64,000 nucleotides of DNA. Origin: Eledone cirrhosa (lineage: Eukaryota). A model generated the notes under the pieces. The model ran no database searches. It had not been told where the DNA came from and saw nothing but the letters and a program-made list of their open reading frames with translations. Shown here piece after piece: positions 8,001-64,000 of this stretch. Position 1 is the stretch's first letter. Every line of letters begins with the position of its first letter. The translations under genes were made by a program, and so were the position numbers. Location: assembly GCA_964016885.1 (NCBI GenBank), contig OZ024744.1, positions 128,464,001 through 128,528,000 on the forward strand. The letters run 5' to 3'.

Positions 8001-8390
8001 AAGTTGGGGTTGAGTTAAGTTGGGGTTGAGTTAAGTCGGGGTTGAGTTAAGTTGGGGTTGAGTTAAGTTGGGGTTAAGTTAAGTTGGGGTTAAGTTAAGA
8101 TGGATTTAAGTTAAGTTGGGGTTAAGTTAAGTTGGGGTTAAGTTAAGTTGGGGTAAATTTAAGTTGGGGTTAAGTTAAGTTGATGTTAAGTTAACTTGGG
8201 GTTAAGTTAAGTTGGGGTTAAGTTAAGTTGGGGTAGAGTTAAATTGAGGTTAAGTTAACTTTGGTTTCAGTTAAGTTGGGGTTAAGTTAAGTTGGGGTTA
8301 AGTTAAGTTGGGGTTAATTTAAGTTGGGGTTAAATTAAGTTGGGGTTAAGTTAAGTTGGGGTTAAGTTAAGTTGGGGTTAAGTTAAGTTG
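5061..8390 (+). repeat. Non-HOR sub-domain of the same satellite with local duplications
   Basis: Same monomer with a different variant order: TTCAGTTCAG, runs of GTCAAG monomers, TTAAAG insertions at about 6096 and 7137, GGCGTT at 6293 and 7398. Confidence 0.75.
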
Positions 8391-14300: not shown

Positions 14301-17300
14301 GGTTAAGCTAAGTTGGGGTTAAGTTAAATTGAGGTTAAGTTAACTTGGGTTTGAGTTAAGTTGGGGTTAAGTTAAGTTGGGGTTAAGTTAAGTTGGGGTT
14401 AAGTTAAGTTGGGGTTGAGTTAAGTTGAGGTTAAGTTAAGTCGGGGTTAAGTTAAGTTGAGGTTGAGTTAAGTTGGGGTTGAGTTAAGTTGGGGTTAAGT
14501 TAAGTTGGGGTTAAGTTAAGATGGATTTAAGTTAAGTTGGGGTAAAGTTAAGTTTGGGTTAATTTAAGTTGGGGTTAAGTTAAGTTGGGGTTGAATTAAG
14601 TTGGGGTTGAGTTAAGTTGGGGTTAAGTTAAGTTGAGGTTAACTTAAGTTGGGGTTAAGTTAAGTTTGGGTTAATTTAAGTTGGGGTTAAGTTAAGTTGG
14701 GGTTAAGCTAAGTTGGGGTTTATTTAAATTGAGGTTAAGTTAACTTGGGTTTGAGTTAAGTTGGGGTTAAGTTAAGTTGGGGTTAAGTTAAGTTGGGGTT
14801 AAGTTAAGTCGGGGTTAAGTTAAGTTGAGGTTGAGTTAAGTTGGGGTTGAGTTAAGTTGGGGTTAAGTTAAGTTGGGGTTAAGTTAAGATGGATTTAAGT
14901 TAATTGGGGTCTAGTTAAGTTGGGGTTAAGTTAAGTTGGGGTAAAGTTAAGTTGGGGTTAATTTAAGTTGAGGTTAAGTTAACTTGGGGTTAAGTTAAGT
15001 TGGCGTTAAGTTAAGTTGGGGTTGAGTTAAGTTGGGGTTAAGTTAAGTTGGGGTTAACTTAAGTTGGGGTTAAGTTAAGTTGGGGTTGAGTTAAGTTTGG
15101 GTTAAGTTAAGTTGGGGTTAAGCTAAGTTGGGGTTAAGTTAAATTGAGGTTAAGTTAAGTTGGGGTTGAGTTAAGTTGGGGTTAAGTTAAGTTGGGGTTG
15201 AGTTAAGTTGAGGTTAAGTTAAGTTGGGGTTAAGTTAAGTTGGGGTTAAGTTAAGTTGGGGTTCAGTTAAGTTGGGGTTAAGTTAAGTTGGGGTTAAGTT
15301 AAGTTGGGGTTAAGTTAAGTTGGGGTTGAGTTAAGTTGGCGTTTAATTAAGTTGGGGTTGAGTTAAGTTGGGGTTGAGTTAAGTTGGGGTTGAGTTAAGT
15401 TGGGGTTAAGTTAAGATGGATTTAAGTTAAGTTGGGGTTAAATTAAGTTGGGGTTAAGTTAAGTTGGGGTAAAGTTAAGTTGGGGTTAAGTTAAGTTGAT
15501 GTTAAGTTAACTTGGGGTTAAGTTAAGTTCGGGTTAAGTTAAGTTGGGGTAGAGTTAAATTGAGGTTAAGTTAACTTTGGTTTCAGTTAAGTTGGGGTTA
15601 AGTTAAGTTGGGGTTAAGTTAAGTTGGGGTTAATTTAAGTTGGGGTTAAATTAAGTTGGAGTTAAGCTAAGTTGGGGTTTATTTAAATTGAGGTTAAGTT
15701 AACTTGGGTTTGAGTTAAGTTGGGGTTAAGTTAAGTTGGGGTTAAGTTAACTTGGGTTTGAGTTAAGTTGGGGTTAAGTTAAGTTGGGGTTAAGTTAAGT
15801 TGGGGTTAATTTAAGTTGGGGTTAAATTAAGTTGGGGTTAAGTTAAGTTGGGGTTAAGTTAAGTTGAGGTTGAGTTAAGTTGGGGTTGAATTAAGTTGGG
15901 GTTAAGTTAAGTTGGGGTTAAGTTAAGATGGGGTTAAGCTAAGTTGGGGTTAAGTTAAATTGAGGTTAAGTTAACTTGGGTTTGAGTTAAGTTGGGGTTA
16001 AGTTAAGTTGGGGTTAAGTTAAGTTGGGGTTAATTTAAGTTGGGGTTAAATTAAGTTGGGGTTAAGTTAAGTTGGGGTTAAGTTAAGTTGGAGTTAAATT
16101 AAGTTGGGGTTAAGTTAAGTTGAGGTTGAGTTAATTTGGGGTTAAGTTAAGTTGGGGTTAACTTAAGTTGGGGTTAATTTAAGTTGGGGTTAAGTTAAGT
16201 TGGGGGTAAGTTAAGTTGGGGGCAAGTTGAGTTGGGGTTAAGTTAAGTTGGGTTTAAGTTAAGTTGGGGCTAAGTTAAGTTGGGGCTAAGTTAAGTTGGG
16301 GCTGAGTTAAGTTGGGGTTAAGTTAAGTTGGGGTTGAGTTAAGTTGGGGTTAACTTAAGTTGGGGTTAAGTTGGGGTTAAGTTAAGTTGGGGTTAAATTA
16401 AGTTGGGGGTTAGTTAAGTTGGGGCAAGTTAAGTTGGGGTTAATTTAAGTTGGGGTTAATTTAAGTTGGGGTTATGTTAAGTTGGGGTTAAGTTAAGTTG
16501 GGGTTAAGTTAAGTTGGGGGTAAGTTAAGTTGGGGTTAAGTTAAGTTGGGGGTAAGTTAAGTTGAGGGTAAGTCAAGTTGGGGTTAAGTCAAGTTGGGGT
16601 TAAGTTAAGTTGGGGGTAAGTTAAGTTGGGGGCAAGTTAAGTTGGGGTTAAGTTAAGTTGGGGTTGAGTTAAGTTGGGGTTGAGTTAAGTTGGGGTTAAG
16701 TTAAGTTGGGTGTAAGTTAAGTTGGGGTTAAGTTAAGTTGGGGTTAAGTTAAGTTGGGGTTAAGTTAAGTTGGGGGTAAGTTAAGTTGGGGGCAAGTTAA
16801 GTTGGGGTTAAGTTAAGTTGGGGTTAAGTTAAGTTGGGGTTAAGTTAAGTTGGGGTTAAGTTAAGTTGGGGTTAAGTTAAGTTGGGGTTAAATTAAGTTG
16901 AGGTTAAGTTAATTTGGGGTTAAGTTAAGTTGGGGTTAAATTAAGTTGGGGGTAAGATAAGTTGGGGCTAAGTTAAGTTGGGGCTAAGTCAAGTTGGGGT
17001 TAAGTCAAGTTGAGGTTAACTTAAGTTGGGGTTAAGTTAAGTTGGGGTTAAGTTAAGTTGGGGTTAAGGTAAGGTGGGGTTAAGTTAAGTTGGGGTTAAG
17101 TTAAGTTGGGGTTAAGTTAAGTTGGGGTTAAGTTAAGTTAGGGTTAATTTCAGTTGGGGTTATGTTAAGTTGGGGTTAAGTTAAGTTGGGGTTAAGTTAA
17201 GTTGAGGTTAAGTTAAGTTGGAGTTAAGTTAAGTTGGGGTTAAGCTAAGTTGGGGTTAAGTTAATTTGCGGTTAAGTTAGGTTGTGGGTTAAGTTAAGTT

Positions 17301-17690
17301 GGGGTTAAGTTAAGCTGGGGTTAAGTTAGGGTAAGTTAAGTTGGGGTTAAGTTAAGTTGGGGTTAAGTTAGGTTGGGGTTAAGTTAAGTTGGGGTTGAGT
17401 TAAGTTGGGGTTGAGTTAAGTTGGGGTTAAGTTAAGTTGGGGTTAAGTTAAGTTGGGGTTAAGTTAAGTTGGGGTTAAGTTAAGTTGGGGTTAAGTTAAG
17501 TTGGGGGCAAGTTAAGTTGGGGTTAATTTAAGTTGAGGTTAAGTTAAGTTGGTGTTAAGTTAAGTTGGGGCTAAGTTAAGTTGGGGCTGAGTTAAGTTGG
17601 GGCTGAGTTAAGTTGCAGTTAAGTTAAGTTGGGGTTGAGTTAAGTTGCGGTTAAGTTAAGTTGGGGTTAAGTTAAGTTGGGGTTAAGTTA
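8390..17690 (+). repeat. Tandem duplication of an about 4.63-4.7 kb block (about 8390-13075 and about 13076-17690)
   Basis: Marker pairs GTCTAG 10281/14909, GTAGAG 10921/15549 and GGTTGTGGG 12652/17280 are each offset by 4628. CTCGGG 9411/14120 is offset by 4709. Confidence 0.88.
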
Positions 17691-20600
17691 AGTTGGGGTT
17701 TATTTAAGTTGGGGTTCAGTTAATTTGGGGTTAAGTTAAGTTTGGGTTAAGTTGGGGTTAAATTAAGTTGGGGTTAAATTAAGTTGGGGTTAAGCTAATT
17801 TGGGGTTAAGTTAAGTTGGGGTTAATTTAAGTTGGGGTTAAGTTAAGTTGCGGGTAATTTAAGTCGGGGTTAAGTTAAGTTGGGGTTAAGTTAAGTTGGG
17901 GTTAAGTTAAGGTGGGGTTTAGTTAAGTTGGGGTTAAGTTAAGTTGGGGGTAAGTTAAGTTGGGGGTAAGTTAAGTTGGGGGTAAGTTAAGTTGGGGTTA
18001 AGTTAAGTCGGGGTTAAGTTAAGTTGGGGTTAAGTTAAGTTGGGGTTAATTTAAGTTAGGGTTAAGTTAAGTTGGGGGTAAGTTAAGTTGGGGGTAAGTT
18101 AAGTTAGGGTTAAGTTAAGTTGGGGTTGAGTTAAGTTGGGGTTAAGTTAAGTTGGGGTTATGTTAAGTTGGGGTTAAGTTAAGTTGGGGTTAAGTTAAGT
18201 TGGGGTTAAGTTAAGTTGCGGTTAAGTTAAGTTGGGGTTAAATTAAGTTGGGGTTAAGTTAAGTTGGGATTAAGTTAAGTTGGGGTTAAGTTAAGTTGGG
18301 GTTAAGTTAAGTTGGGGTTAAGTTAGATTGTTGTTAAGTTAAGTTGGGGTTAAGTTAAGTTGGGGTTAAGTTAAGTTGGGGTTAATTTAAGTTGGGGTTA
18401 AGTTATGTCGGGGTTAAGTTGAGTTGGGGTTAAGTTAAGTTGGGGTTAAGTTAAGTTGGGGTTAAGTTAAGTTGGGGTTAAGTTAAGTTGGGGTTAAGTT
18501 AAGTTGGGGTTAAATTAAGTTGAGGTTAAGTTAATTTGGGGTTAAGTTAAGTTGGGGTTAAATTAAGTTGGGGGTAAGATAAGTTGGGGCTAAGTTAAGT
18601 TGGGGCTAAGTCAAGTTGGGGTTAAGTCAAGTTGAGGTTAACTTAAGTTGGGGTTAAGTTAAGTTGGGGTTAAGTTAAGTTGGGGTTAAGGTAAGGTGGG
18701 GTTAAGTTAAGTTGGGGTTAAGTTAAGTTGGGGTTAAGTTAAGTTGGGGTTAAGTTAAGTTAGGGTTAATTTCAGTTGGGGTTATGTTAAGTTGGGGTTA
18801 AGTTAAGTTGGGGTTAAGTTAAGTTGAGGTTAAGTTAAGTTGGAGTTAAGTTAAGTTGGGGTTAAGCTAAGTTGGGGTTAAGTTAATTTGCGGTTAAGTT
18901 AGGTTGTGGGTTAAGTTAAGTTGGGGTTAAGTTAAGCTGGGGTTAAGTTAGGGTAAGTTAAGTTGGGGTTAAGTTAAGTTGGGGTTAAGTTAGGTTGGGG
19001 TTAAGTTAAGTTGGGGTTGAGTTAAGTTGGGGTTGAGTTAAGTTGGGGTTAAGTTAAGTTGGGGTTAAGTTAAGTTGGGGTTAAGTTAAGTTGGGGTTAA
19101 GTTAAGTTGGGGTTAAGTTAAGTTGGGGGCAAGTTAAGTTGGGGTTAATTTAAGTTGAGGTTAAGTTAAGTTGGTGTTAAGTTAAGTTGGGGCTAAGTTA
19201 AGTTGGGGCTGAGTTAAGTTGGGGCTGAGTTAAGTTGCAGTTAAGTTAAGTTGGGGTTGAGTTAAGTTGCGGTTAAGTTAAGTTGGGGTTAAGTTAAGTT
19301 GGGGTTAAGTTAAGTTGGGGTTTATTTAAGTTGGGGTTCAGTTAATTTGGGGTTAAGTTAAGTTTGGGTTAAGTTGGGGTTAAATTAAGTTGGGGTTAAA
19401 TTAAGTTGGGGTTAAGCTAATTTGGGGTTAAGTTAAGTTGGGGTTAATTTAAGTTGGGGTTAAGTTAAGTTGCGGGTAATTTAAGTCGGGGTTAAGTTAA
19501 GTTGGGGTTAAGTTAAGTTGGGGTTAAGTTAAGGTGGGGTTTAGTTAAGTTGGGGTTAAGTTAAGTTGGGGGTAAGTTAAGTTGGGGGTAAGTTAAGTTG
19601 GGGGTAAGTTAAGTTGGGGTTAAGTTAAGTCGGGGTTAAGTTAAGTTGGGGTTAAGTTAAGTTGGGGTTAATTTAAGTTAGGGTTAAGTTAAGTTGGGGG
19701 TAAGTTAAGTTGGGGGTAAGTTAAGTTAGGGTTAAGTTAAGTTGGGGTTGAGTTAAGTTGGGGTTAAGTTAAGTTGGGGTTATGTTAAGTTGGGGTTAAG
19801 TTAAGTTGGGGTTAAGTTAAGTTGGGGTTAAGTTAAGTTGCGGTTAAGTTAAGTTGGGGTTAAATTAAGTTGGGGTTAAGTTAAGTTGGGATTAAGTTAA
19901 GTTGGGGTTAAGTTAAGTTGGGGTTAAGTTAAGTTGGGGTTAAGTTAGATTGTTGTTAAGTTAAGTTGGGGTTAAGTTAAGTTGGGGTTAAGTTAAGTTG
20001 GGGTTAATTTAAGTTGGGGTTAAGTTATGTCGGGGTTAAGTTGAGTTGGGGTTAAGTTAAGTTGGGGTTAAGTTAAGTTGGGGTTAAGTTAAGTTGGGGT
20101 TAAGATAAGTTGGGGTTAAGTTAAGTTGGGGTTAAATTAAGTTCGGGTTAAGTTAATTTGGGGTTGACTTAAGTTGGGGTTAACGTAAGTTGGGATTAAG
20201 TTAAGTTGGGGTTAAGTTAAGTTGGGGTTAAATTAAGTTCGGGTTAAGTTAAGTTGGGGTTAAGTTAAGTTGGGGTTAAGTTAAGTTGGGGTTAAGTTAG
20301 GTTGGGGTTAAGTTAAGTTGGGGGTAAGTTAAGTTGGGGTTAAGTTAAGTTGGGGTTAAGTTAAGTTGGGGGTAAGTTAAGTTGGGGGTAAGTTAAGTTG
20401 GGGTTAATTTAAGTTGGGTCGAATTAAGTTGGTGTTAAGTTAAGTTGGGGTTAAGTTAAGTTGGGGTTAAGTTAAGTTGGGGTTAAGTTAAGATGGGGTT
20501 TAGTTAAGTTGGGGTTAAGTTAAGTTGGGGTTACGTTAAGTTGGGGGTAAGTTAAGTTGGTGGTAAGTTAAGTTGGGGGTAAGTTAAGATGGGGTTAAAT

Positions 20601-23600
20601 TAAGTTGGGGTTAAGTTAATTTGGGGTTGACTTAATTTGGGGTTGACTTAAGTTGGGGTTAACTTAAGTTGGGGTTAAGTTAAGATGGGGTTTAGTTAAG
20701 TTGGGGTTAGGTTAAGTTGGGGTTTAGTTAAGTTGGGGTTAAGTTAATTTGGGGTTAAGTTAAGTTGGTGGTAAGTTAAGTTGGGGGTAAGTTAAGTTGG
20801 GGGTAAGTTAAGTTGGGGTTAATTTAAGTTGGGTCGAATTAAGTTGGTGTTAAGTTAAGTTGGGGTTAAGTTAAGTTGGGGTTAAGTTAAGTTGGGGTTA
20901 AGTTAAGTTGGGGGTAAGTTAAGTTGGGGGTAAGTTAAGTTGGGGTTAATTTAAGTTGGGTCGAATTAAGTTGGTGTTAAGTTAAGTTGGGGTTAAGTTA
21001 AGTTGGGGTTAAGTTAAGTTGGGGTTGAGTTAAGTCGGGGTTAAGTTAAGTTGGGGTTATGTTAAGTTGGGGTTAAATTAAGTTGGGGTTAAGTTAAGTT
21101 GGGGTTCAATTAAGTTGCGGTTAATTTAAGTTGGGGTTAAGTTAAGTTGGGGTTAAGTTAAGTTGGGGTTAAGTTAAGTTGGGGTTAAATTAAGTTGGGG
21201 TTAAATTAAGTTGGGGTTAAGTTAAGTTGGGGTTATGTTAAGTTGGTGTTAAGTTAAGTTGGGGTTAAGTTAAGTTGGGGTTAAGTTAAGTTGGGGTTAA
21301 GTTAGGTTGGTGTTAAGTTAAGTTGGGGGTAAGTTAAGTTGGGGGTAAGTTAAGTTGGTGTTAAGTTAAGTTGGGGTTAAGTTAAGTTGGGGTTAAGTTA
21401 AGTTGGGTTTAAGTTAAGTTGGGGCTAAGTTAAGTTAGGGCTAAGTTAAGTTGGGGTTAAGTAAAGTTAGGGCTAAGTTAAGTTGGGTTAAGTTAAGTTG
21501 GGGTTAATTTAACTTGGGGTTACATTAAGTTGAGGTTAAGTTAAGTTGGTGTTAAGTTAAGTTGGGGTTAATTTAAGTTGGGGTTAATTAAGTTGGGGTT
21601 AATTTAAGTTGGGGTTAAGTTAAGTTGGGGTTAATTTCAGTTGGGGTTGAGTTAAGTTGGGGTTAAGTTTAGTTGGGGTTAATTTAAGTTGGGGTTGAGT
21701 TAAGTTGGGGTTAAGTTAAGTTGGGGTTAAGTTATGTTCGGGTTAAGTTAAGTTGGTGTTAAGTTAAGTTAGGGTTAAGTTAAGTTGCGGCTAAGTTAAG
21801 TTGGGTCTAAGTTAAGTTGGGGTTAAGTTAAGTTGGGGTTAAGTTAAGTGAGGGTTAATTTAAGTTGGGGTTATTTTAAGTTGGGGTTAAGTTAAGTTGG
21901 GGTTAAGTTAGGTTGGTGTTAAGTTAAGTTGCGGCTAAGTTAAGTTGGGTTTAAGTTAAGTTGGGGCTAAGTTAAGTTAGGGCTAAGTTAAGTTGGGGCT
22001 GAGTTAAGTTGGGGTTAAGTTAAGTTGGGGTTGAGTTAAGTTGGGGCTAAGTTAAGTTGGGGTTTAGTTAAGTTGGGGTTAAGTTAAGGTGGGGTTAAGT
22101 TAAGTTGGGGTCAACTAAAGTTGGGGTTAAGTTAAGTTGGGGTTAACTTAAGTTGGGGTTAAATTAAGTTGGGGTTAAGTTAAGTTGGGGTTAAGTTAAG
22201 TTGGGGTTAAGTTAAGTTGCGGGTAATTTAAGTTGGGGTTAACTTAAGTTGGGGTTAAGTTAAGTTGGGGGTAAGTTAAGTTGGGGGTAAGTTAAGTTGG
22301 GGTTAAGTTAAGTTAGGGTTAAGTTAAGTTGGGGTTGAGTTAAGTTGGGGTTAAGTTAAGTTGGGGTTATGTTAAGTTGGGGTTAAGTTAAGTTGGGGTT
22401 AATTTAAGTTGGGGTTAAGTTAAGTTGCGGTTAAGTTAAGTTGGGGTTAAATTAAGTTGGGGTTAAGTTAAGTTGGGATTAAGTTAAGTTGGGGTTAAGT
22501 TAAGTTGGGGTTAAGTTAGATTGTTGTTAAGTTAAGTTGGGGTTAAGTTAAGTTGGGGTTAATTTAAGTTGGGGTTAATTTAAGTTGGGTCTAATTAAGT
22601 TGGGGTTAAGTTAAGTTGGGGTTAAGTTAAGTTGGGGTTAAGTTAAGTTGGGGTTAAGTTAAGTTGCGTTTACGTTAAGTTGGGGGTAAGTTAAGTTGGT
22701 GGTAAGTTAAGTTGGGGGTAAGTTAAGATGGGGTTAAGTTAAGTTGGGGTTAATTTAATTTGGGGTTAAGTTAAGTTAGGGTTAAGTTAAGTTGGGGTTG
22801 AGTTAAGTCGGGGTTCAGTTAAGTTGGGGTTATGTTAAGTTGGGGTTAAGTTAAGTTGGGGTTAAGTTAAGTTGGGGTTCAATTAAGTTGCGGGTAATTT
22901 AAGTTGGGGTTAAGTTAAGTTGGGGGTACGTTAAGTTGGGGGTAAGTTAAGTTGGGGTTAAGTTAAGTTGGGGTTAAGTTAAGTCGGGGTTAATTTAAGT
23001 TGCGGTTAAGTTAAGTTGGGGTTAAGTTAAGTTGGGGTTAAGTTAAGTTGGGATTAAGTTAAGTTGGGGTTAAGTTAAGTTGGGGTTGAGTTAAGTTGGG
23101 GTTAAGTTAGATTATTGTTAATTTATTTTGGGGTTAAGTTAAGTTGGGGTTAAGTTAAGTTGGGGTTAATTTAAGTTGGGGTTAAGTTAAGTGGGGGTTA
23201 AGTTGAGTTGGGGTTAAGTTAAGTTGGGGTTAAGTTAAGTTGGGGTTAAGATAAGTTGGGGTTAAGTTAAGTTGGGGTTGAGTTAAGTTCGGGTTGAGTT
23301 AATTTGGGGTTAACTTAAGTTGGGGTTAACTTAAGTTGGGGTTAAGTTAAGTTGGGTTTATGTTAAGTTGGGGATAAGTTAAGTTGGGGTTAAGTTAAGT
23401 TGGGGTTCAATTAAGTTGCGGTTAATTTAAGTTGGGGTTAAGTTAAGTTGGGGTTAAGTTAAGTTGGGGTTAAGTTAAGTTGGGGTTAAATTAAGTTAGG
23501 GCTAAGTTAAGTTGAGGTTATGTTAAGTTGGTGTTAAGTTAGGTTGGTGTTAAGTTAAGTTGGGGGTAAGTTAAGTTGGGGGTAAGTTAAGTTGGTGTTA

Positions 23601-24345
23601 AGTTAAGTTGGGGTTAAGTTAAGTTGGGGTTAATTTAAGTTGGGGTTAAGTTAAGTTGGGTTTAAGTTAAGTTGGGTCTAAGTTAAGTTGGGGTTAAGTT
23701 AAGTTGAGGTTAAGTTAAGTTGGGATTAAGTTAAGTTGGGGTTAAGTTAAGTTGGGGTTAAGTTAAGTTGGGGTTAAGTTAGGTTGGGGTCAAGTTATGT
23801 TGGGGGTAAGTTAAGTTGGGGGTAAGTTAAGTTGGGGTTAGGTTAAGTTGGGGTTAAGTTAAGTTGGGGTTAAGTTAAGTTGGGGTTACGTTAAGTTGGG
23901 GGTGAGTTAAGTTGGTGGTAAGTTAAGTTGGGGGTAAGTTAAGATGGGGTTAAGTTAAGTTGGGGTTAATTTAATTTGGGGTTAAGTTAAGTTAGGGTTA
24001 AGTTAAGTTGGGGTTGAGTTAAGTTGGGGTTAAGTTAAGTTGGGGTTATGTTAAGTTGGGGATAAGTTAAGTTGGGGTTAAGTTAAGTTGGGGTTCAATT
24101 AAGTTGCGGTTAATTTAAGTTGGGGTTAAGTTAAGTTCGGGTTAAGTTAAGTTGGGGTTAAGTTAAGTTGGGGTTAAATTAAGTTAGGGCTAAGTTAAGT
24201 TGAGGTTATGTTAAGTTGGTGTTAAGTTAAGTTGGGGTTAAGTTAAGTTGGGGTTAAGTTAAGTTGGGGTTAAGTTAAGTTGGGTTTAAGTTAAGTTGGG
24301 GCTAAGTTAAGTTGGGGTTAAGTTAAGTTGGGGTTAAGTTAAGTT
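15470..24345 (+). repeat. Full HOR copy containing an internal 1,622-bp tandem duplication
   Basis: GTAGAG 15549, GGTTGTGGG 17280 and 18902, GTGAGGG 21848, ATTATTGTTAATTTATTTT 23111; next GTAGAG at 24397. Confidence 0.87.
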
Positions 24346-30300: not shown

Positions 30301-31284
30301 GTTAAGTTGGGGATAAGTTAAGTTGGGGTTAAGTTAAGTTGGGGTTCAATTAAGTTGCGGTTAATTTAAGTTGGGGTTAAGTTAAGTTGGGGTTAAGTTA
30401 AGTTGGGGTTAAGTTAAGTTGGGGTTAAATTAAGTTAGGGCTAAGTTAAGTTGAGGTTATGTTAAGTTGGTGTTAAGTTAGGTTGGTGTTAAGTTAAGTT
30501 GGGGGTAAGTTAAGTTGGGTTTGAGTTAAGTTGGTGTTAAGTTAAGTTGGGGTTAAGTTAAGTTGGGGTTAATTTAAGTTGGGGTTAAGTTAAGTTGGGT
30601 TTAAGTTAAGTAGGGTCTAAGTTAAGTTGGGGTTAAGTTAAGTTGAGGTTAAGTTAAGTTGGGATTAAGTTAAGTTGGGGTTAAGTTAAGTTGGGGTTAA
30701 GTTAAGTTGGGGTTAAGTTAGGTTGGGGTCAAGTTATGTTGGGGGTAAGTTAAGTTGGGGGTAAGTTAAGTTGGGGTTAGGTTAAGTTGGGGTTAAGTTA
30801 AGTTGGGGTTAAGTTAAGTTGGGGTTACGTTAAGTTGGGGGTGAGTTAAGTTGGTGGTAAGTTAAGTTGGGGGTAAGTTAAGATGGGGTTAAGTTAAGTT
30901 GGGGTTAATTTAATTTGGGGTTAAGTTAAGTTAGGGTTAAGTTAAGTTGGGGTTGAGTTAAGTTGGGGTTAAGTTAAGTTGGGGTTATGTTAAGTTGGGG
31001 ATAAGTTAAGTTGGGGTTAAGTTAAGTTGGGGTTCAATTAAGTTGCGGTTAATTTAAGTTGGGGTTAAGTTAAGTTCGGGTTAAGTTAAGTTGGGGTTAA
31101 GTTAAGTTGGGGTTAAATTAAGTTAGGGCTAAGTTAAGTTGAGGTTATGTTAAGTTGGTGTTAAGTTAAGTTGGGGTTAAGTTAAGTTGGGGTTAAGTTA
31201 AGTTGGGGTTAAGTTAAGTTGGGTTTAAGTTAAGTTGGGGCTAAGTTAAGTTGGGGTTAAGTTAAGTTGGGGTTAAGTTAAGTT
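24346..31284 (+). repeat. Full HOR copy, 6,939 bp, with several small monomer deletions
   Basis: GTAGAG 24397 to the next GTAGAG 31336; GGTTGTGGG 26112, GTGAGGG 28803, ATTATT marker 30050. It has only two GGGTCGAATT markers and lacks TATGTCGGGG. Confidence 0.88.
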
Positions 31285-37200: not shown

Positions 37201-37660
37201 GGTTAAGTTAAGTTGGGGTTAAGTTAAGTTGGGATTAAGTTAAGTTGGGGTTAAGTTAAGTTGGGGTTGAGTTAAGTTGGGGTTAAGTTAGATTATTGTT
37301 AATTTATTTTGGGGTTAAGTTAAGTTGGGGTTAAGTTAAGTTGGGGTTAATTTAAGTTGGGGTTAAGTTAAGTGGGGGTTAAGTTGAGTTGGGGTTAAGT
37401 TAAGTTGGGGTTAAGTTAAGTTGGGGTTAAGATAAGTTGGGGTTAAGTTAAGTTGGGGTTGAGTTAAGTTCGGGTTGAGTTAATTTGGGGTTAACTTAAG
37501 TTGGGGTTAACTTAAGTTGGGGTTAAGTTAAGTTGGGTTTATGTTAAGTTGGGGATAAGTTAAGTTGGGGTTAAGTTAAGTTGGGGTTCAATTAAGTTGC
37601 GGTTAATTTAAGTTGGGGTTAAGTTAAGTTGGGGTTAAGTTAAGTTGGGGTTAAGTTAAG
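31285..37660 (+). repeat. HOR copy truncated near its end
   Basis: GTAGAG 31336, GGTTGTGGG 33067, GTGAGGG 35997, ATTATT marker 37292, then a jump back to the GAGGGTAAGTCAAG marker at about 37679. Confidence 0.87.
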
Positions 37661-51100: not shown

Positions 51101-51240
51101 AGTTAAGTTGGGGTTAAGATAAGTTGGGGTTAAGTTAAGTTGGGGTTGAGTTAAGTTCGGGTTGAGTTAATTTGGGGTTAACTTAAGTTGGGGTTAACTT
51201 AAGTTGGGGTTAAGTTAAGTTGGGTTTATGTTAAGTTGGG
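45131..51240 (+). repeat. HOR copy of the right-end lineage, tail truncated
   Basis: GTAGAG 45183, GGTTGTGGG 46914, GTGAGGG 49732, ATTATT marker 50979, then a jump to the GGAGTTAAGCT marker at about 51270. Confidence 0.87.
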
Positions 51241-54200: not shown

Positions 54201-57120
54201 GTTAAGTTAAGTTGGGGTTAAATTAAGTTCGGGTTAAGTTAAGTTGGGGTTAAGTTAAGTTGGGGTTAAGTTAAGTTGGGGTTAAGTTAGGTTGGGGTTA
54301 AGTTAAGTTGGGGGTAAGTTAAGTTGGGGTTAAGTTAAGTTGGGGTTAAGTTAAGTTGGGGGTAAGTTAAGTTGGGGGTAAGTTAAGTTGGGGTTAATTT
54401 AAGTTGGGTCGAATTAAGTTGGTGTTAAGTTAAGTTGGGGTTAAGTTAAGTTGGGGTTAAGTTAAGTTGGGGTTAAGTTAAGATGGGGTTTAGTTAAGTT
54501 GGGGTTAAGTTAAGTTGGGGTTACGTTAAGTTGGGGGTAAGTTAAGTTGGTGGTAAGTTAAGTTGGGGGTAAGTTAAGATGGGGTTAAATTAAGTTGGGG
54601 TTAAGTTAATTTGGGGTTGACTTAATTTGGGGTTGACTTAAGTTGGGGTTAACTTAAGTTGGGGTTAAGTTAAGATGGGGTTTCGTTAAGTTGGGGTTAA
54701 GTTAAGTTGGGGTTTAGTTAAGTTGGGGTTAAGTTAAGTTGGGGTTAAGTTAAGTTGGGGGTAAGTTAAGTTGGGGGTAAGTTAAGTTGGGGTTAATTTA
54801 AGTTGGGTCGAATTAAGTTGGTGTTAAGTTAAGTTGGGGTTAAGTTAAGTTGGGGTTAAGTTAAGTTGGGGTTAAGTTAAGTTGGGGGTAAGTTAAGTTG
54901 GGGGTAAGTTAAGTTGGGGTTAATTTAAGTTGGGTCGAATTAAGTTGGTGTTAAGTTAAGTTGGGGTTAAGTTAAGTTGGGGTTAAGTTAAGTTGGGGTT
55001 CAATTAAGTTGCGGTTAATTTAAGTTGGGGTTAAGTTAAGTTGGGGTTAAGTTAAGTTGGGGTTAAGTTAAGTTGGGGTTAAATTAAGTTGGGGTTAAAT
55101 TAAGTTGGGGTTAAGTTAAGTTGGGGTTATGTTAAGTTGGTGTTAAGTTAAGTTGGGGTTAAGTTAAGTTGGGGTTAAGTTAAGTTGGGGTTAAGTTAGG
55201 TTGGTGTTAAGTTAAGTTGGGGGTAAGTTAAGTTGGGGGTAAGTTAAGTTGGTGTTAAGTTAAGTTGGGGTTAAGTTAAGTTGGGGTTAAGTTAAGTTGG
55301 GTTTAAGTTAAGTTGGGGTTAAGTAAAGTTAGGGCTAAGTTAAGTTGGGTTAAGTTAAGTTGGGGTTAATTTAACTTGGGGTTACATTAAGTTGAGGTTA
55401 AGTTAAGTTGGTGTTAAGTTAAGTTGGGGTTAATTTAAGTTGGGGTTAATTAAGTTGGGGTTAATTTAAGTTGGGGTTAAGTTAAGTTGGGGTTAATTTC
55501 AGTTGGGGTTGAGTTAAGTTGGGGTTAAGTTTAGTTGGGGTTAATTTAAGTTGGGGTTGAGTTAAGTTGGGGTTAAGTTAAGTTGGGGTTAAGTTATGTT
55601 CGGGTTAAGTTAAGTTGGTGTTAAGTTAAGTTAGGGTTAAGTTAAGTTGCGGCTAAGTTAAGTTGGGTCTAAGTTAAGTTGGGGTTAAGTTAAGTTGGGG
55701 TTAAGTTAAGTGAGGGTTAATTTAAGTTGGGGTTATTTTAAGTTGGGGTTAAGTTAAGTTGGGGTTAAGTTAGGTTGGTGTTAAGTTAAGTTGGGGGTAA
55801 GTTAAGTTGGGGCTAAGTTAAGTTAGGGCTAAGTTAAGTTGGGGCTAAGTTAAGTTGGGGTTTAGTTAAGTTGGGGTTAAGTTAAGGTGGGGTTAAGTTA
55901 AGTTGGGGTCAACTAAAGTTGGGGTTAAGTTAAGTTGGGGTTAACTTAAGTTGGGGTTAAATTAAGTTGGGGTTAAGTTAAGTTGGGGTTAAGTTAAGTT
56001 GGGGTTAAGTTAAGTTGCGGGTAATTTAAGTTGGGGTTAAGTTAAGTTGGGGTTAAGTTAAGTTGGGGGTAAGTTAAGTTGGGGGTAAGTTAAGTTGGGG
56101 TTAAGTTAAGTTAGGGTTAAGTTAAGTTGGGGTTGAGTTAAGTTGGGGTTAAGTTAAGTTGGGGTTATGTTAAGTTGGGGTTAAGTTAAGTTGGGGTTAA
56201 TTTAAGTTGGGGTTAAGTTAAGTTGCGGTTAAGTTAAGTTGGGGTTAAATTAAGTTGGGGTTAAGTTAAGTTGGGATTAAGTTAAGTTGGGGTTAAGTTA
56301 AGTTGGGGTTAAGTTAGATTGTTGTTAAGTTAAGTTGGGGTTAAGTTAAGTTGGGGTTAATTTAAGTTGGGGTTAATTTAAGTTGGGTCTAATTAAGTTG
56401 GGGTTAAGTTAAGTTGGGGTTAAGTTAAGTTGGGGTTAAGTTAAGTTGGGGTTAAGTTAAGTTGCGTTTACGTTAAGTTGGGGGTAAGTTAAGTTGGTGG
56501 TAAGTTAAGTTGGGGGTAAGTTAAGATGGGGTTAAGTTAAGTTGGGGTTAATTTAATTTGGGGTTAAGTTAAGTTAGGGTTAAGTTAAGTTGGGGTTGAG
56601 TTAAGTCGGGGTTCAGTTAAGTTGGGGTTATGTTAAGTTGGGGTTAAGTTAAGTTGGGGTTAAGTTAAGTTGGGGTTCAATTAAGTTGCGGGTAATTTAA
56701 GTTGGGGTTAAGTTAAGTTGGGGGTACGTTAAGTTGGGGGTAAGTTAAGTTGGGGTTAAGTTAAGTTGGGGTTAAGTTAAGTCGGGGTTAATTTAAGTTG
56801 CGGTTAAGTTAAGTTGGGGTTAAGTTAAGTTGGGGTTAAGTTAAGTTGGGATTAAGTTAAGTTGGGGTTAAGTTAAGTTGGGGTTGAGTTAAGTTGGGGT
56901 TAAGTTAGATTATTGTTAATTTATTTTGGGGTTAAGTTAAGTTGGGGTTAAGTTAAGTTGGGGTTAATTTAAGTTGGGGTTAAGTTAAGTGGGGGTTAAG
57001 TTGAGTTGGGGTTAAGTTAAGTTGGGGTTAAGTTAAGTTGGGGTTAAGATAAGTTGGGGTTAAGTTAAGTTGGGGTTGAGTTAAGTTCGGGTTGAGTTAA
57101 TTTGGGGTTAACTTAAGTTG
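51241..57120 (+). repeat. Shortened HOR copy, about 5.9 kb
   Basis: GGTTGTGGG 52892 and GTGAGGG 55710 are both 5978 after the previous copy; ATTATT marker 56909. Confidence 0.87.
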
Positions 57121-60100
57121 GGGTTAATTTAAGTTGGGGTTAAGTTAAGTTGGGGGTAAGTTAAGTTGGGGGCAAGTTGAGTTGGGGTTAAGTTAAGTTG
57201 GGTTTAAGTTAAGTTGGGGCTAAGTTAAGTTGGGGCTAAGTTAAGTTGGGGCTGAGTTAAGTTGGGGTTAAGTTAAGTTGGGGTTGAGTTAAGTTGGGGT
57301 TAACTTAAGTTGGGGTTAAGTTGGGGTTAAGTTAAGTTGGGGTTAAATTAAGTTGGGGGTTAGTTAAGTTGGGGCAAGTTAAGTTGGGGTTAATTTAAGT
57401 TGGGGTTAATTTAAGTTGGGGTTATGTTAAGTTGGGGTTAAGTTAAGTTGGGGTTAAGTTAAGTTGGGGGTAAGTTAAGTTGGGGTTAAGTTAAGTTGGG
57501 GGTAAGTTAAGTTGAGGGTAAGTCAAGTTGGGGTTAAGTCAAGTTGGGGTTAAGTTAAGTTGGGGTTAAGTTAAGTTGGGGTTGAGTTAAGTTGGGGTTG
57601 AGTTAAGTTGGGGTTAAGTTAAGTTGGGTGTAAGTTAAGTTGGGGTTAAGTTAAGTTGGGGTTAAGTTAAGTTGGGGTTAAGTTAATTTGGGGGTAAGTT
57701 AAGTTGGGGGCAAGTTAAGTTGGGGTTAAGTTAAGTTGGGGTTAAGTTAAGTTGGGGTTAAGTTAAGTTGGGGTTAAGTTAAGTTGGGGTTAAGTTAAGT
57801 TGGGGGTAAGTTAAGTTGGGGTTAAGTTAAGTTGGGGTTAAATTAAGTTGAGGTTAAGTTAATTTGGGGTTAAGTTAAGTTGGGGTTAAATTAAGTTGGG
57901 GGTAAGATAAGTTGGGGCTAAGTTAAGTTGGGGCTAAGTCAAGTTGGGGTTAAGTCAAGTTGAGGTTAACTTAAGTTGGGGTTAAGTTAAGTTGGGGTTA
58001 AGTTAAGTTGGGGTTAAGGTAAGGTGGGGTTAAGTTAAGTTGGGGTTAAGTTAAGTTGGGGTTAAGTTAAGTTGGGGTTAAGTTAAGTTAGGGTTAATTT
58101 CAGTTGGGGTTATGTTAAGTTGGGGTTAAGTTAAGTTGGGGTTAAGTTAAGTTGAGGTTAAGTTAAGTTGGAGTTAAGTTAAGTTGGGGTTAAGCTAAGT
58201 TGGGGTTAAGTTAATTTGCGGTTAAGTTAGGTTGTGGGTTAAGTTAAGTTGGGGTTAAGCTAAGCTGGGGTTAAGTTAGGGTAAGTTAAGTTGGGGTTAA
58301 GTTAAGTTGGGGTTAAGTTAGGTTGGGGTTAAGTTAAGTTGGGGTTAAGTTAAGTTGGGGTTGAGTTAAGTTGGGGTTGAGTTAAGTTGGGGTTAAGTTA
58401 AGTTGGGGTTAAGTTAAGTTGGGGTTAAGTTAAGTTGGGGTTAAGTTAAGTTGGGGTTAAGTTAAGTTGGGGGCAAGTTAAGTTGGGGTTAATTTAAGTT
58501 GAGGTTAAGTTAAGTTGGTGTTAAGTTAAGTTGGGGCTAAGTTAAGTTGGGGCTGAGTTAAGTTGGGGCTGAGTTAAGTTGCAGTTAAGTTAAGTTGGGG
58601 TTGAGTTAAGTTGCGGTTAAGTTAAGTTGGGGTTAAGTTAAGTTGGGGTTAAGTTAAGTTGGGGTTTATTTAAGTTGGGGTTCAGTTAATTTGGGGTTAA
58701 GTTAAGTTTGGGTTAAGTTGGGGTTAAATTAAGTTGGGGTTAAGCTAATTTGGGGTTAAGTTAAGTTGGGGTTAATTTAAGTTGGGGTTAAGTTAAGTTG
58801 CGGGTAATTTAAGTCGGGGTTAAGTTAAGTTGGGGTTAAGTTAAGTTGGGGTTAAGTTAAGGTGGGGTTTAGTTAAGTTGGGGTTAAGTTAAGTTGGGGG
58901 TAAGTTAAGTTGGGGGTAAGTTAAGTTGGGGGTAAGTTAAGTTGGGGTTAAGTTAAGTCGGGGTTAAGTTAAGTTGGGTTTAAGTTAAGTTGGGGTTAAT
59001 TTAAGTTGGGGTTAAGTTAAGTTGGGGGTAAGTTAAGTTGGGGGTAAGTTAAGTTAGGGTTAAGTTAAGTTGGGGTTGAGTTAAGTTGGGGTTAAGTTAA
59101 GTTGGGGTTATGTTAAGTTGGGGTTAAGTTAAGTTGGGGTTAAGTTAAGTTGGGGTTAAGTTAAGTTGCGGTTAAGTTAAGTTGGGGTTAAATTAAGTTG
59201 GGGTTAAGTTAAGTTGGGATTAAGTTAAGTTGGGGTTAAGTTAAGTTGGGGTTAAGTTAAGTTGGGGTTAAGTTAGATTGTTGTTAAGTTAAGTTGGGGT
59301 TAAGTTAAGTTGGGGTTAAGTTAAGTTGGGGTTAATTTAAGTTGGGGTTAAGTTATGTCGGGGTTAAGTTGAGTTGGGGTTAAGTTAAGTTGGGGTTAAG
59401 TTAAGTTGGGGTTAAGTTAAGTTGGGGTTAAGATAAGTTGGGGTTAAGTTAAGTTGGGGTTAAATTAAGTTCGGGTTAAGTTAATTTGGGGTTGACTTAA
59501 GTTGGGGTTAACTTAAGTTGGGATTAAGTTAAGTTGGGGTTAAGTTAAGTTGGGGTTAAATTAAGTTCGGGTTAAGTTAAGTTGGGGTTAAGTTAAGTTG
59601 GGGTTAAGTTAAGTTGGGGTTAAGTTAGGTTGGGGTTAAGTTAAGTTGGGGGTAAGTTAAGTTGGGGTTAAGTTAAGTTGGGGTTAAGTTAAGTTGGGGG
59701 TAAGTTAAGTTGGGGGTAAGTTAAGTTGGGGTTAATTTAAGTTGGGTCGAATTAAGTTGGTGTTAAGTTAAGTTGGGGTTAAGTTAAGTTGGGGTTAAGT
59801 TAAGTTGGGGTTAAGTTAAGATGGGGTTTAGTTAAGTTGGGGTTAAGTTAAGTTGGGGTTACGTTAAGTTGGGGGTAAGTTAAGTTGGTGGTAAGTTAAG
59901 TTGGGGGTAAGTTAAGATGGGGTTAAATTAAGTTGGGGTTAAGTTAATTTGGGGTTGACTTAATTTGGGGTTGACTTAAGTTGGGGTTAACTTAAGTTGG
60001 GGTTAAGTTAAGATGGGGTTTCGTTAAGTTGGGGTTAAGTTAAGTTGGGGTTTAGTTAAGTTGGGGTTAAGTTAAGTTGGGGTTAAGTTAAGTTGGGGGT

Positions 60101-61845
60101 AAGTTAAGTTGGGGGTAAGTTAAGTTGGGGTTAATTTAAGTTGGGTCGAATTAAGTTGGTGTTAAGTTAAGTTGGGGTTAAGTTAAGTTGGGGTTAAGTT
60201 AAGTTGGGGTTAAGTTAAGTTGGGGGTAAGTTAAGTTGGGGGTAAGTTAAGTTGGGGTTAATTTAAGTTGGGTCGAATTAAGTTGGTGTTAAGTTAAGTT
60301 GGGGTTAAGTTAAGTTGGGGTTAAGTTAAGTTGGGGTTCAATTAAGTTGCGGTTAATTTAAGTTGGGGTTAAGTTAAGTTGGGGTTAAGTTAAGTTGGGG
60401 TTAAGTTAAGTTGGGGTTAAATTAAGTTGGGGTTAAATTAAGTTGGGGTTAAGTTAAGTTGGGGTTATGTTAAGTTGGTGTTAAGTTAAGTTGGGGTTAA
60501 GTTAAGTTGGGGTTAAGTTAAGTTGGGGTTAAGTTAGGTTGGTGTTAAGTTAAGTTGGGGGTAAGTTAAGTTGGGGGTAAGTTAAGTTGGTGTTAAGTTA
60601 AGTTGGGGTTAAGTTAAGTTGGGGTTAAGTTAAGTTGGGTTTAAGTTAAGTTGGGGTTAAGTAAAGTTAGGGCTAAGTTAAGTTGGGTTAAGTTAAGTTG
60701 GGGTTAATTTAACTTGGGGTTACATTAAGTTGAGGTTAAGTTAAGTTGGTGTTAAGTTAAGTTGGGGTTAATTTAAGTTGGGGTTAATTAAGTTGGGGTT
60801 AATTTAAGTTGGGGTTAAGTTAAGTTGGGGTTAATTTCAGTTGGGGTTGAGTTAAGTTGGGGTTAAGTTTAGTTGGGGTTAATTTAAGTTGGGGTTGAGT
60901 TAAGTTGGGGTTAAGTTAAGTTGGGGTTAAGTTATGTTCGGGTTAAGTTAAGTTGGTGTTAAGTTAAGTTAGGGTTAAGTTAAGTTGCGGCTAAGTTAAG
61001 TTGGGTCTAAGTTAAGTTGGGGTTAAGTTAAGTTGGGGTTAAGTTAAGTGAGGGTTAATTTAAGTTGGGGTTATTTTAAGTTGGGGTTAAGTTAAGTTGG
61101 GGTTAAGTTAGGTTGGTGTTAAGTTAAGTTGGGGGTAAGTTAAGTTGGGGCTAAGTTAAGTTAGGGCTAAGTTAAGTTGGGGCTGAGTTAAGTTGGGGTT
61201 AAGTTAAGTTGGGGTTGAGTTAAGTTGGGGCTAAGTTAAGTTGGGGTTTAGTTAAGTTGGGGTTAAGTTAAGGTGGGGTTAAGTTAAGTTGGGGTCAACT
61301 AAAGTTGGGGTTAAGTTAAGTTGGGGTTAACTTAAGTTGGGGTTAAATTAAGTTGGGGTTAAGTTAAGTTGGGGTTAAGTTAAGTTGGGGTTAAGTTAAG
61401 TTGCGGGTAATTTAAGTTGGGGTTAAGTTAAGTTGGGGTTAAGTTAAGTTGGGGGTAAGTTAAGTTGGGGGTAAGTTAAGTTGGGGTTAAGTTAAGTTAG
61501 GGTTAAGTTAAGTTGGGGTTGAGTTAAGTTGGGGTTAAGTTAAGTTGGGGTTATGTTAAGTTGGGGTTAAGTTAAGTTGGGGTTAATTTAAGTTGGGGTT
61601 AAGTTAAGTTGCGGTTAAGTTAAGTTGGGGTTAAATTAAGTTGGGGTTAAGTTAAGTTGGGATTAAGTTAAGTTGGGGTTAAGTTAAGTTGGGGTTAAGT
61701 TAGATTGTTGTTAAGTTAAGTTGGGGTTAAGTTAAGTTGGGGTTAATTTAAGTTGGGGTTAATTTAAGTTGGGTCTAATTAAGTTGGGGTTAAGTTAAGT
61801 TGGGGTTAAGTTAAGTTGGGGTTAAGTTAAGTTGGGGTTAAGTTA
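57121..61845 (+). repeat. Further shortened HOR copy, about 4.7 kb
   Basis: GGTTGTGGG 58230 and GTGAGGG 61048 are both 5338 after the previous copy. It ends shortly after GGGTCTAATT at about 61771. Confidence 0.86.
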
Positions 61846-64000
61846 AGTTGGGGTTAATTTAAGTTGGGGTTAAGTTATGTCGGGGTTAAGTTGAGTTGGG
61901 GTTAAGTTAAGTTGGGGTTAAGTTAAGTTGGGGTTAAGTTAAGTTGGGGTTAAGATAAGTTGGGGTTAAGTTAAGTTGGGGTTAAATTAAGTTCGGGTTA
62001 AGTTAATTTGGGGTTGACTTAAGTTGGGGTTAACTTAAGTTGGGATTAAGTTAAGTTGGGGTTAAGTTAAGTTGGGGTTAAATTAAGTTCGGGTTAAGTT
62101 AAGTTGGGGTTAAGTTAAGTTGGGGTTAAGTTAAGTTGGGGTTAAGTTAGGTTGGGGTTAAGTTAAGTTGGGGGTAAGTTAAGTTGGGGTTAAGTTAAGT
62201 TGGGGTTAAGTTAAGTTGGGGGTAAGTTAAGTTGGGGGTAAGTTAAGTTGGGGTTAATTTAAGTTGGGTCGAATTAAGTTGGTGTTAAGTTAAGTTGGGG
62301 TTAAGTTAAGTTGGGGTTAAGTTAAGTTGGGGTTAAGTTAAGATGGGGTTTAGTTAAGTTGGGGTTAAGTTAAGTTGGGGTTACGTTAAGTTGGGGGTAA
62401 GTTAAGTTGGTGGTAAGTTAAGTTGGGGGTAAGTTAAGATGGGGTTAAATTAAGTTGGGGTTAAGTTAATTTGGGGTTGACTTAATTTGGGGTTGACTTA
62501 AGTTGGGGTTAACTTAAGTTGGGGTTAAGTTAAGATGGGGTTTCGTTAAGTTGGGGTTAAGTTAAATTGGGGTTTAGTTAAGTTGGGGTTAAGTTAAGTT
62601 GGGGTTAAGTTAAGTTGGGGGTAAGTTAAGTTGGGGGTAAGTTAAGTTGGGGTTAATTTAAGTTGGGTCGAATTAAGTTGGTGTTAAGTTAAGTTGGGGT
62701 TAAGTTAAGTTGGGGTTAAGTTAAGTTGGGGTTAAGTTAAGTTGGGGGTAAGTTAAGTTGGGGGTAAGTTAAGTTGGGGTTAATTTAAGTTGGGTCGAAT
62801 TAAGTTGGTGTTAAGTTAAGTTGGGGTTAAGTTAAGTTGGGGTTAAGTTAAGTTGGGGTTCAATTAAGTTGCGGTTAATTTAAGTTGGGGTTAAGTTAAG
62901 TTGGGGTTAAGTTAAGTTGGGGTTAAGTTAAGTTGGGGTTAAATTAAGTTGGGGTTAAATTAAGTTGGGGTTAAGTTAAGTTGGGGTTATGTTAAGTTGG
63001 TGTTAAGTTAAGTTGGGGTTAAGTTAAGTTGGGGTTAAGTTAAGTTGGGGTTAAGTTAGGTTGGTGTTAAGTTAAGTTGGGGGTAAGTTAAGTTGGGGGT
63101 AAGTTAAGTTGGTGTTAAGTTAAGTTGGGGTTAAGTTAAGTTGGGGTTAAGTTAAGTTGGGTTTAAGTTAAGTTGGGGTTAAGTAAAGTTAGGGCTAAGT
63201 TAAGTTGGGTTAAGTTAAGTTGGGGTTAATTTAACTTGGGGTTACATTAAGTTGAGGTTAAGTTAAGTTGGTGTTAAGTTAAGTTGGGGTTAATTTAAGT
63301 TGGGGTTAATTAAGTTGGGGTTAATTTAAGTTGGGGTTAAGTTAAGTTGGGGTTAATTTCAGTTGGGGTTGAGTTAAGTTGGGGTTAAGTTTAGTTGGGG
63401 TTAATTTAAGTTGGGGTTGAGTTAAGTTGGGGTTAAGTTAAGTTGGGGTTAAGTTATGTTCGGGTTAAGTTAAGTTGGTGTTAAGTTAAGTTAGGGTTAA
63501 GTTAAGTTGCGGCTAAGTTAAGTTGGGTCTAAGTTAAGTTGGGGTTAAGTTAAGTTGGGGTTAAGTTAAGTGAGGGTTAATTTAAGTTGGGGTTATTTTA
63601 AGTTGGGGTTAAGTTAAGTTGGGGTTAAGTTAGGTTGGTGTTAAGTTAAGTTGGGGGTAAGTTAAGTTGGGGCTAAGTTAAGTTAGGGCTAAGTTAAGTT
63701 GGGGCTGAGTTAAGTTGGGGTTAAGTTAAGTTGGGGTTGAGTTAAGTTGGGGCTAAGTTAAGTTGGGGTTTAGTTAAGTTGGGGTTAAGTTAAGGTGGGG
63801 TTAAGTTAAGTTGGGGTCAACTAAAGTTGGGGTTAAGTTAAGTTGGGGTTAACTTAAGTTGGGGTTAAATTAAGTTGGGGTTAAGTTAAGTTGGGGTTAA
63901 GTTAAGTTGGGGTTAAGTTAAGTTGCGGGTAATTTAAGTTGGGGTTAAGTTAAGTTGGGGTTAAGTTAAGTTGGGGGTAAGTTAAGTTGGGGGTAAGTTA
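61846..64000 (+). repeat. Partial HOR copy re-entering mid-unit (2,522-bp offset), cut by the window end
   Basis: TATGTCGGGG 59354/61876 and GTGAGGG 61048/63570 are both offset by 2522. Confidence 0.86.

What the first reader, a model, noticed from the sequence alone, without database searches (positions are those of the whole stretch)
15470..64000. Hidden 7.24-kb higher-order repeat of about 454 monomers built on a 16-bp satellite
Seen: rare variant monomers recur in a fixed order (GTAGAG, GAGGGTAAGTC, GGTAAGGT, GGTTGTGGG, TTGCAG, TTAGATTGTTG, three GGGTCGAATT, TTACATT, GTGAGGG, CAACTAAAG, GCGTTTACG, ATTATTGTTAATTTATTTT). The ATTATT marker lies at 23111, 30050, 37292, 43897, 50979 and 56909. 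The intact interval 30050-37292 is 7,242 bp, which equals 454 x 16 - 22, and the small indels I counted in one unit sum to -22. Known: HORs are classic for primate alpha satellite, where they usually comprise a few to a few tens of 171-bp monomers. Inference: a several-hundred-mer HOR on a minisatellite-sized monomer implies amplification in multi-kb steps, as in centromeric or recombination-maintained terminal arrays. It may be an undescribed satellite system.
Basis: partly seen in the sequence, partly recalled or inferred. Interest (0 to 1): 0.75.

Follow-up and report, generated by a model that had tools for sequence, protein, structure and literature searches.

The report
Eroding 7-kb unit in 16-bp satellite
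Inside an 8-million-base block of a 16-letter repeat, about 25 near-identical but mostly trimmed or patched copies of one 454-repeat, 7.2-kb unit lie within 280,000 bases; they likely arose by ordinary copying between misaligned copies, as in human satellite DNA, and no function is shown.

Summary
The observation largely holds. The whole window is a 16-bp satellite. All 3,044 monomers from 15,466 to 64,000 map in order onto one 454-monomer, 7,242-bp template, which is also the segment-by-segment modal length. Copies differ by about 0.2%; monomers differ by about 6% from consensus.

It is not a fixed-period HOR. Of 41 marker intervals over 424 kb (2.1-24.3 kb), one is 7,242 bp and three are near-complete. 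The template is confined to about 280 kb of a roughly 8.4-Mb array near the end of contig C28. It is a mosaic whose modules are shared with neighbouring layers built on about 10.9- and 11.7-kb units. Other parts of the array, and arrays on C3 and C18, have their own irregular kilobase spacings.

In-phase junctions, variants shared by nearby copies, multi-unit duplications and toy simulations favour repeated in-register unequal exchange.

Precedent exists: human HSat2/3 nested repeats (DYZ1, 3.6 kb on a pentamer) and heterogeneous HORs across eukaryotes. I found no paper with this monomer. The genome is likely an octopod's (inferred). A centromere role is untested. The scan had already noted this array 184 kb downstream and similar arrays elsewhere in the genome.

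The parts
1..64000 (+). 16-bp satellite (consensus GGGGTTAAGTTAAGTT), 4,012 monomers, one orientation; part of a roughly 8.4-Mb array, C28:126,967,457 to between 135.304 and 135.400 Mb (extent from spot samples)
30050..37291 (+). Reference copy of the template B: 454 monomers, 7,242 bp
31253..33321 (+). Module D (B76-205), shared in part with the upstream layer; coordinates approximate
33322..36335 (+). Core module (B206-394), with the three TaqI-site monomers; common to the ~7.2, ~10.9 and ~11.7-kb unit types; coordinates approximate
36336..37291 (+). First half of module C (B395-453); C continues through the ATTATT marker to B75-77 and is shared with the downstream layer, where it leads into an AT-rich insert
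15466..23110 (+). Copy running B76-453 with a 1,622-bp tandem duplication (16804-18458 repeated at 18426, 0 differences in 1,655 bp)
23111..30049 (+). Near-complete copy, 435 monomers, 6,939 bp
37292..43896 (+). Rearranged copy, 414 monomers: 120-monomer deletion, two internal duplications
43897..50978 (+). Near-complete copy, 444 monomers, 7,082 bp
50979..56908 (+). Deleted copy, 372 monomers; 45260-49847 recurs at 51238 with 2 differences in 4,588 bp
56909..64000 (+). Copy with a 106-monomer deletion and a 2,522-bp duplication; runs on beyond the window (496 monomers in all)
5060..10837 (+). Module A, 361 monomers not in the 454-mer; replaces C between B394 and B76, giving a ~10.9-kb alternative unit; partial copy at 13,067-15,465

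Best explanation
This is a local, young and already eroding higher-order unit of 454 monomers (7,242 bp) inside a multi-megabase 16-bp satellite, likely made and spread by repeated homology-guided misalignment (unequal exchange or replication restart) between nearby copies. Shown: one irreducible template, about 26-29 copies of its commonest blocks in 280 kb, about 0.2% divergence between copies, rearrangements that keep the 16-bp phase, duplications of several units at once, and derived variants shared by subsets of copies. Inferred: point mutation first diversified the monomers. An out-of-register but in-phase exchange then joined modules of two older layers into a 454-monomer circuit. Exchanges between long identical stretches copied or removed whole units, while rarer out-of-register exchanges at short (about 10-45 bp) identities trimmed or patched single copies. 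The period is likely a passing by-product of satellite turnover in heterochromatin and not a selected length.
For: Colinear mapping and modal length. Copy divergence 0.15-0.28% against 6.0% monomer-to-consensus. In 128.424-128.561 Mb, 233 of 235 non-16-bp monomers belong to recurrent types, so large rearrangements do not create off-phase monomers. Twenty distinct large junctions have 23 bp mean exact identity against 16 bp for simulated random in-phase junctions, p about 0.011. Of 32 variants among 29 copies of the core, 18 are shared by two or more copies, and carriers lie closer together than chance (mean gap 3.5 vs 7.7 copies, p 0.0008). About 19 kb recurs 47-49 kb downstream and 16 kb is duplicated in tandem. 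Toy model: windows as regular as this one arise in 0 of 105 windows without in-register events, and in 6 of 116, 28 of 114, 54 of 112 and 61 of 110 with 50, 80, 90 and 97% in-register events. The template fades along the array: 86%, 60% and 8% of monomers map in three successive blocks. Nine regions sampled elsewhere (seven on C28, one each on C3 and C18) have their own multi-kb spacings. Arabidopsis mutation-accumulation lines show kilobase indels of whole repeat units that suffice to build homogenised blocks in simulation (10.1101/2025.06.02.657473, abstract and section 11).
Against: The simulations are toy models with assumed event sizes. The window was picked by a reader for its regularity: a 64-kb frame shifted 6 kb upstream gives a ratio of 2.09, not 1.55. 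The junction-identity excess is modest and rests on 20 junctions mapped against one reference copy; a first estimate (p 0.0014) was biased and was replaced. Divergence rises only weakly with distance (Spearman 0.14 and 0.27 on non-independent pairs), which a single burst would also allow. No raw reads or second individual were examined.
Confidence: 0.75

Rival explanations
1. The 7.2-kb block is the youngest expanding layer of the C28 centromere: the same recombination, but driven at the kinetochore.
For: Multi-megabase array with layered similarity: the window shares 41% of 48-mers with the next block downstream and 5-18% with distant parts. It was the most regular of the regions examined. 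The family sits mid-chromosome on C2 (209 of 416 Mb) and C3 (185 of 379 Mb). Human centromeres commonly lie over young layers (10.1101/2021.07.12.452052, passages).
Against: No CENP-A, methylation or Hi-C data. The family was seen on four contigs only (C2, C3, C18, C28), from truncated listings (100 of 80,801, 100 of 8,413 and 100 of 125 matches). C28 carries other large satellites at 120-124 Mb. All sampled parts of the array are highly duplicated (unique 48-mers 2-18%), so this block is not uniquely young. In maize no specific HOR class dominates functional centromeres (PMC13011684, abstract).
Confidence: 0.15
2. One saltatory burst (rolling-circle amplification of a 7.2-kb circle and reinsertion), followed by decay.
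For: An irreducible template with modal length 454. A burst of 40 copies followed by about 80-160 random events gives a similar regularity. Low, fairly even divergence.
Against: Derived variants and junctions are shared by subsets of copies (one deletion junction occurs 10 times). Multi-unit duplications exist. Modules continue into neighbouring layers with other unit lengths. Later copying is needed in any case.
Confidence: 0.1
3. Assembly artefact: a shorter region was expanded or mis-joined by the assembler.
For: Some copies are identical over 4 kb (0 differences in 4,060 bp).
Against: Copies carry private and nested variants and distinct junctions. There is no N in 526 kb. Single identical duplicates could still be errors; the overall structure is unlikely to be.
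Confidence: 0.04
4. A recombination-maintained terminal (telomere-like) array.
For: G-rich, C-poor strand (C 1.4%); each monomer contains GGGTTA. On C3 the array abuts a degenerate CCCTAA tract.
Against: C10, C13 and C19 start with CCCTAA repeats (3 of 20 starts sampled). The C28 array is internal, followed by about 1.1 Mb of other sequence. On C3 its G-rich strand runs opposite to that of the adjoining tract.
Confidence: 0.02

Closest known systems
Human HSat2/HSat3 nested tandem repeats: DYZ1 ~3.6 kb and HSat2 1.77 kb (10.1101/2021.07.12.452052, 10.1101/2022.12.01.518724, PMC4022460; passages seen)
   Same: Multi-kilobase unit built from hundreds of short diverged monomers; units far more alike than monomers; periodicity varies along an array and expands hyper-locally; iterative duplications ascribed to unequal exchange.
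   Different: Here the 16-bp monomers stay discrete and countable (97% are 16 bp), which fits those authors' definition of HOR rather than NTR. The unit is longer (7.2 kb), covers only about 3% of the array and is rarely intact. No sequence relationship was tested or is claimed.
Heterogeneous (Arabidopsis-type) HORs and homogenised blocks (10.64898/2026.09.17.752431, passages; 10.1101/2025.06.02.657473, abstract and section 11)
   Same: Blocks of near-identical monomer runs at irregular spacing; whole-monomer indels; local homogenisation.
   Different: Monomer is 16 bp, not nucleosomal. A single ordered template persists over about 25 copies. A period of 454 lies beyond the 2-100 monomer range that atlas searched, and its main text has no mention of octopus, cephalopod or Mollusca.
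Regimented primate alpha-satellite HORs (2-46 monomers per 10.64898/2026.09.17.752431, passage)
   Same: Ordered variant monomers, integer monomer count, structural variants by whole monomers.
   Different: No long-range periodicity here: 1 of 41 intervals has the template length. Monomer and order differ tenfold. Centromere function untested.

Membership tests
Higher-order repeat (general definition) | Discrete monomers of similar length in a recurring order | tested here: met
   3,897 of 4,012 monomers are 16 bp; colinear order
Higher-order repeat (general definition) | Unit copies much more alike than monomers within a unit | tested here: met
   0.15-0.28% between copies vs 6.0% from consensus
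Higher-order repeat (general definition) | Unit not reducible to a shorter unit | tested here: met
   Longest internal identical run is 7 monomers; no self-matches within or between modules C, D and core
Regimented (alpha-satellite-type) HOR array | One dominant period over long range | tested here: not met
   1 of 41 intervals is 7,242 bp; the top spacing holds 6% of rare-word spacings in the window
HSat2/3-like nested tandem repeat | Multi-kb unit derived from a short simple repeat, with periodicity varying along the array | tested here: met
   definition
HSat2/3-like nested tandem repeat | Monomer boundaries degenerate, so that units are not discrete numbers of monomers | tested here: not met
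   Monomers remain discrete; it works like an NTR but is formally a long, irregular HOR
Centromeric satellite | CENP-A or kinetochore occupancy | not testable with these tools
   No chromatin data available
Centromeric satellite | One array per chromosome across the karyotype | tested here: inconclusive
   Seen on C2, C3, C18 and C28 in truncated listings; the first listed match is on C2, none on C1
Telomeric / terminal array | Located at the chromosome end in place of the canonical repeat | tested here: not met
   Internal; CCCTAA at 3 of 20 contig starts

The most novel reading that the evidence does not exclude
The 454-monomer unit is a nascent very-high-order HOR marking the active, expanding centromere layer of C28 (a possible sex chromosome of an octopod). 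It would be a sequence-resolved cephalopod centromere built on a 16-bp monomer, with an order far beyond the range that current HOR surveys scan, caught as it arises by recombination between two older layers.
Probability: 0.12. Interest if true: 0.62.

Novelty: new member of a known kind. Interest (0 to 1): 0.3.

Why it matters
It is a clean natural record of satellite turnover. Because the monomers stay countable, one can read the modules, the junctions and the order of duplications by which a multi-kb unit arises from older layers and erodes. It also shows that surveys capped at 100-monomer periods would miss such units in short-monomer satellites. Its variant markers give probes specific to about 280-420 kb of an 8.4-Mb array, which makes the centromere question testable in this animal. 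The kind of structure itself is known.

Tried and rejected
A fixed 454-monomer period: rejected by autocorrelation and interval counts.

First junction-homology estimate: it could overcount at hybrid monomers, so it was redone with a matched null. Junctions with jumps of 6 monomers or fewer (37 distinct) and junctions with a flank under 12 monomers were left out.

Purely random duplication/deletion: did not reproduce the window's regularity, though it resembles most other regions sampled.

Sequencing runs: 7 listed. Three from one sample hold 52-57% of words and may be the source, so they are not counted as support. No RNA holder listed. No raw reads were laid, so the assembly is unverified by reads.

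Rfam on six flanking loci: only a sub-threshold SSU rRNA match in L027 and AT-repeat noise.

Organism: an Atlas look-up of a flanking zinc-finger frame gave no answer, and text searches for its motif found nothing. 'Octopod' therefore rests on my recall of that motif and of flanking LINE/SINE-like sequence, on TTAGGG ends, and on unchecked earlier notes.

Literature for the monomer: 0 hits for four rotations or reverse complements. Octopus or cephalopod satellite searches listed nothing on such a family. PMC13282606 has no mention of satellite or centromere in its main text. Supplements of bioRxiv papers are closed; the family table of the centromere atlas could list this repeat. PMC8122249 (passages) and (listing) added nothing used.

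G-quadruplex: 0 canonical motifs with loops of 1-7 bases, 622 with loops up to 12; not pursued.
Full report
Setting. The window is G000:C28:128,464,001-128,528,000 in a 2,996-Mb assembly; C28 is 136.5 Mb. All 64 kb are one 16-bp satellite, 4,012 copies. Spot samples put the array between 126,967,457 and 135.30-135.40 Mb, about 8.4 Mb; I read only a small part of it, mainly one 526-kb stretch and seven 40-50 kb samples. The family also occurs at C2:209.2 Mb (interleaved with other sequence), C3:184.77-185.36 Mb and C18:4.8 and 10.1-10.4 Mb. Three of 20 contig starts carry CCCTAA repeats, so the satellite is not the telomere. The genome is probably an octopod's; this is inferred from recall and unchecked earlier notes, and no tool confirmed it.

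The observation. Marker positions and the arithmetic 7,242 = 454 x 16 - 22 are exact. Every monomer from 15,466 to 64,000 maps in order on that copy (3,044 of 3,044). The modal distance between anchors equals the reference in 35 of 35 intervals (anchors came from the reference). The unit has no sub-unit. Copies differ by 0.15-0.28% while monomers differ by 6.0% from consensus. A 454-monomer template therefore exists.

The period is not fixed. Units in the window hold 435, 454, 414, 444 and 372 monomers, and lag 454 is a minor autocorrelation peak. The marker occurs 42 times, all within 424 kb. One of 41 intervals is 7,242 bp and three are near-complete. The share of monomers mapping to the template falls from 86% (128.427-128.56 Mb) to 60% (to 128.712) to 8% (to 128.862). 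The predicted 6.7-kb TaqI band would be a spread of 0.5-16.6 kb.

Anatomy. The template has three modules: D (B76-205), a core (B206-394) and C (B395-75). Upstream, a 361-monomer module A stands in place of C (A360 joins B76 six times; spacings of 10,845-10,861 bp). Downstream, C leads at B77 into a segment with a 2-3 kb AT-rich insert (14 times) before rejoining the core (spacings of 11,743 bp). The 454-mer thus looks like a recombinant of two neighbouring layers. That order of events is inferred, not shown.

Mechanism. Large rearrangements keep the 16-bp phase (233 of 235 odd-length monomers in 137 kb are recurrent types). Twenty distinct large junctions show slightly more identity than random in-phase joins (23 vs 16 bp, p about 0.011). 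Eighteen of 32 variants in 29 core copies are shared by subsets, and carriers cluster (p 0.0008). About 19 kb recurs 47-49 kb away and 16 kb is duplicated in tandem. This is iterated local copying, not one burst.

Regularity. The window is more regular than random events give: interquartile ratio 1.35-1.55, with 0 of 240 simulations at or below 1.6. Adding in-register exchanges reproduces it in 6 of 116 to 61 of 110 windows. Against over-reading: these are toy models, the window was selected, and 17 other frames, one of them overlapping the window, give 1.98-5.29.

What is known. Human HSat2/3 arrays are built of multi-kb units on a pentamer, with periodicity that varies along arrays (10.1101/2021.07.12.452052, passages). 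DYZ1 is ~3.6 kb and evolves by iterative duplication (10.1101/2022.12.01.518724, passages; PMC4022460, passages). Regimented and heterogeneous HORs are prevalent in 263 satellite families, 32 of them under 100 bp (10.64898/2026.09.17.752431, passages). Kilobase whole-unit indels suffice to make homogenised blocks in Arabidopsis simulations (10.1101/2025.06.02.657473, abstract and section 11). No paper in the library holds this monomer; closed supplements could.

Function. None is shown. Size, layering and mid-chromosome sites on two giant chromosomes are compatible with pericentromeric heterochromatin. The family was seen on only four contigs, and maize data warn against reading function from HORs (PMC13011684, abstract).

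Verdict. A real, local, eroding long-period HOR in an apparently undescribed satellite; a new member of a known kind; interest 0.3.

Noticed in passing
L156:9100-9200 (C3:184.769 Mb) and L155 (C3:184.60 Mb): The C3 array of the 16-bp satellite begins directly against a degenerate interstitial CCCTAA tract, also present 170 kb upstream, near the middle of a 379-Mb chromosome. It may be a relic of an end fusion, with the satellite formerly subtelomeric.
   Followed up: partly
Contig lengths: Four giant contigs (379-443 Mb) are followed by sizes falling to 22 Mb at C27. C28 (136 Mb) is out of order just before the small scaffolds, as sex chromosomes often are in such assemblies (recalled practice; untested).
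   Followed up: no
C28:128.56-128.90 Mb (e.g. L011:2730-5125): 23 AT-rich inserts of 0.6-3.2 kb and 17 short inverted islands of the 16-mer (16 of them about 200 bp) recur as parts of the amplified downstream units. A similar AT-rich repeat borders the C2 array (L039).
   Followed up: partly
L040 (C2:209.20-209.21 Mb): Composite repeat of about 520 bp: runs of 9-18 variant 16-mers alternate with a ~270-bp unrelated spacer; almost no 48-mers are shared with the other arrays.
   Followed up: no
L027:1198-1836 (C28:126.0 Mb): Degenerate, internally repeated SSU rRNA-like sequence (Rfam 31.8 bits, below the gathering score), about 1 Mb before the array.
   Followed up: no
L141:2877-3998 minus strand (C28:126.60 Mb); also L145: Open frame of about 13 tandem C2H2 zinc fingers, 370 kb before the array; similar 84-bp repeats lie within 10 kb of its start.
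   Followed up: partly
L030, L033, L034, L035, L037 (C28:129.6-134.0 Mb): The distal array holds many strand switches, and the sample at 133.0 Mb is wholly inverted.
   Followed up: no
L023-L025, L152-L154, L021, L022: C28 carries further satellites with units of 64, 90, 41, 48, 48, 90, 30 and 48 bp near this array and at both contig ends; neither end of C28 shows telomere repeats.
   Followed up: no
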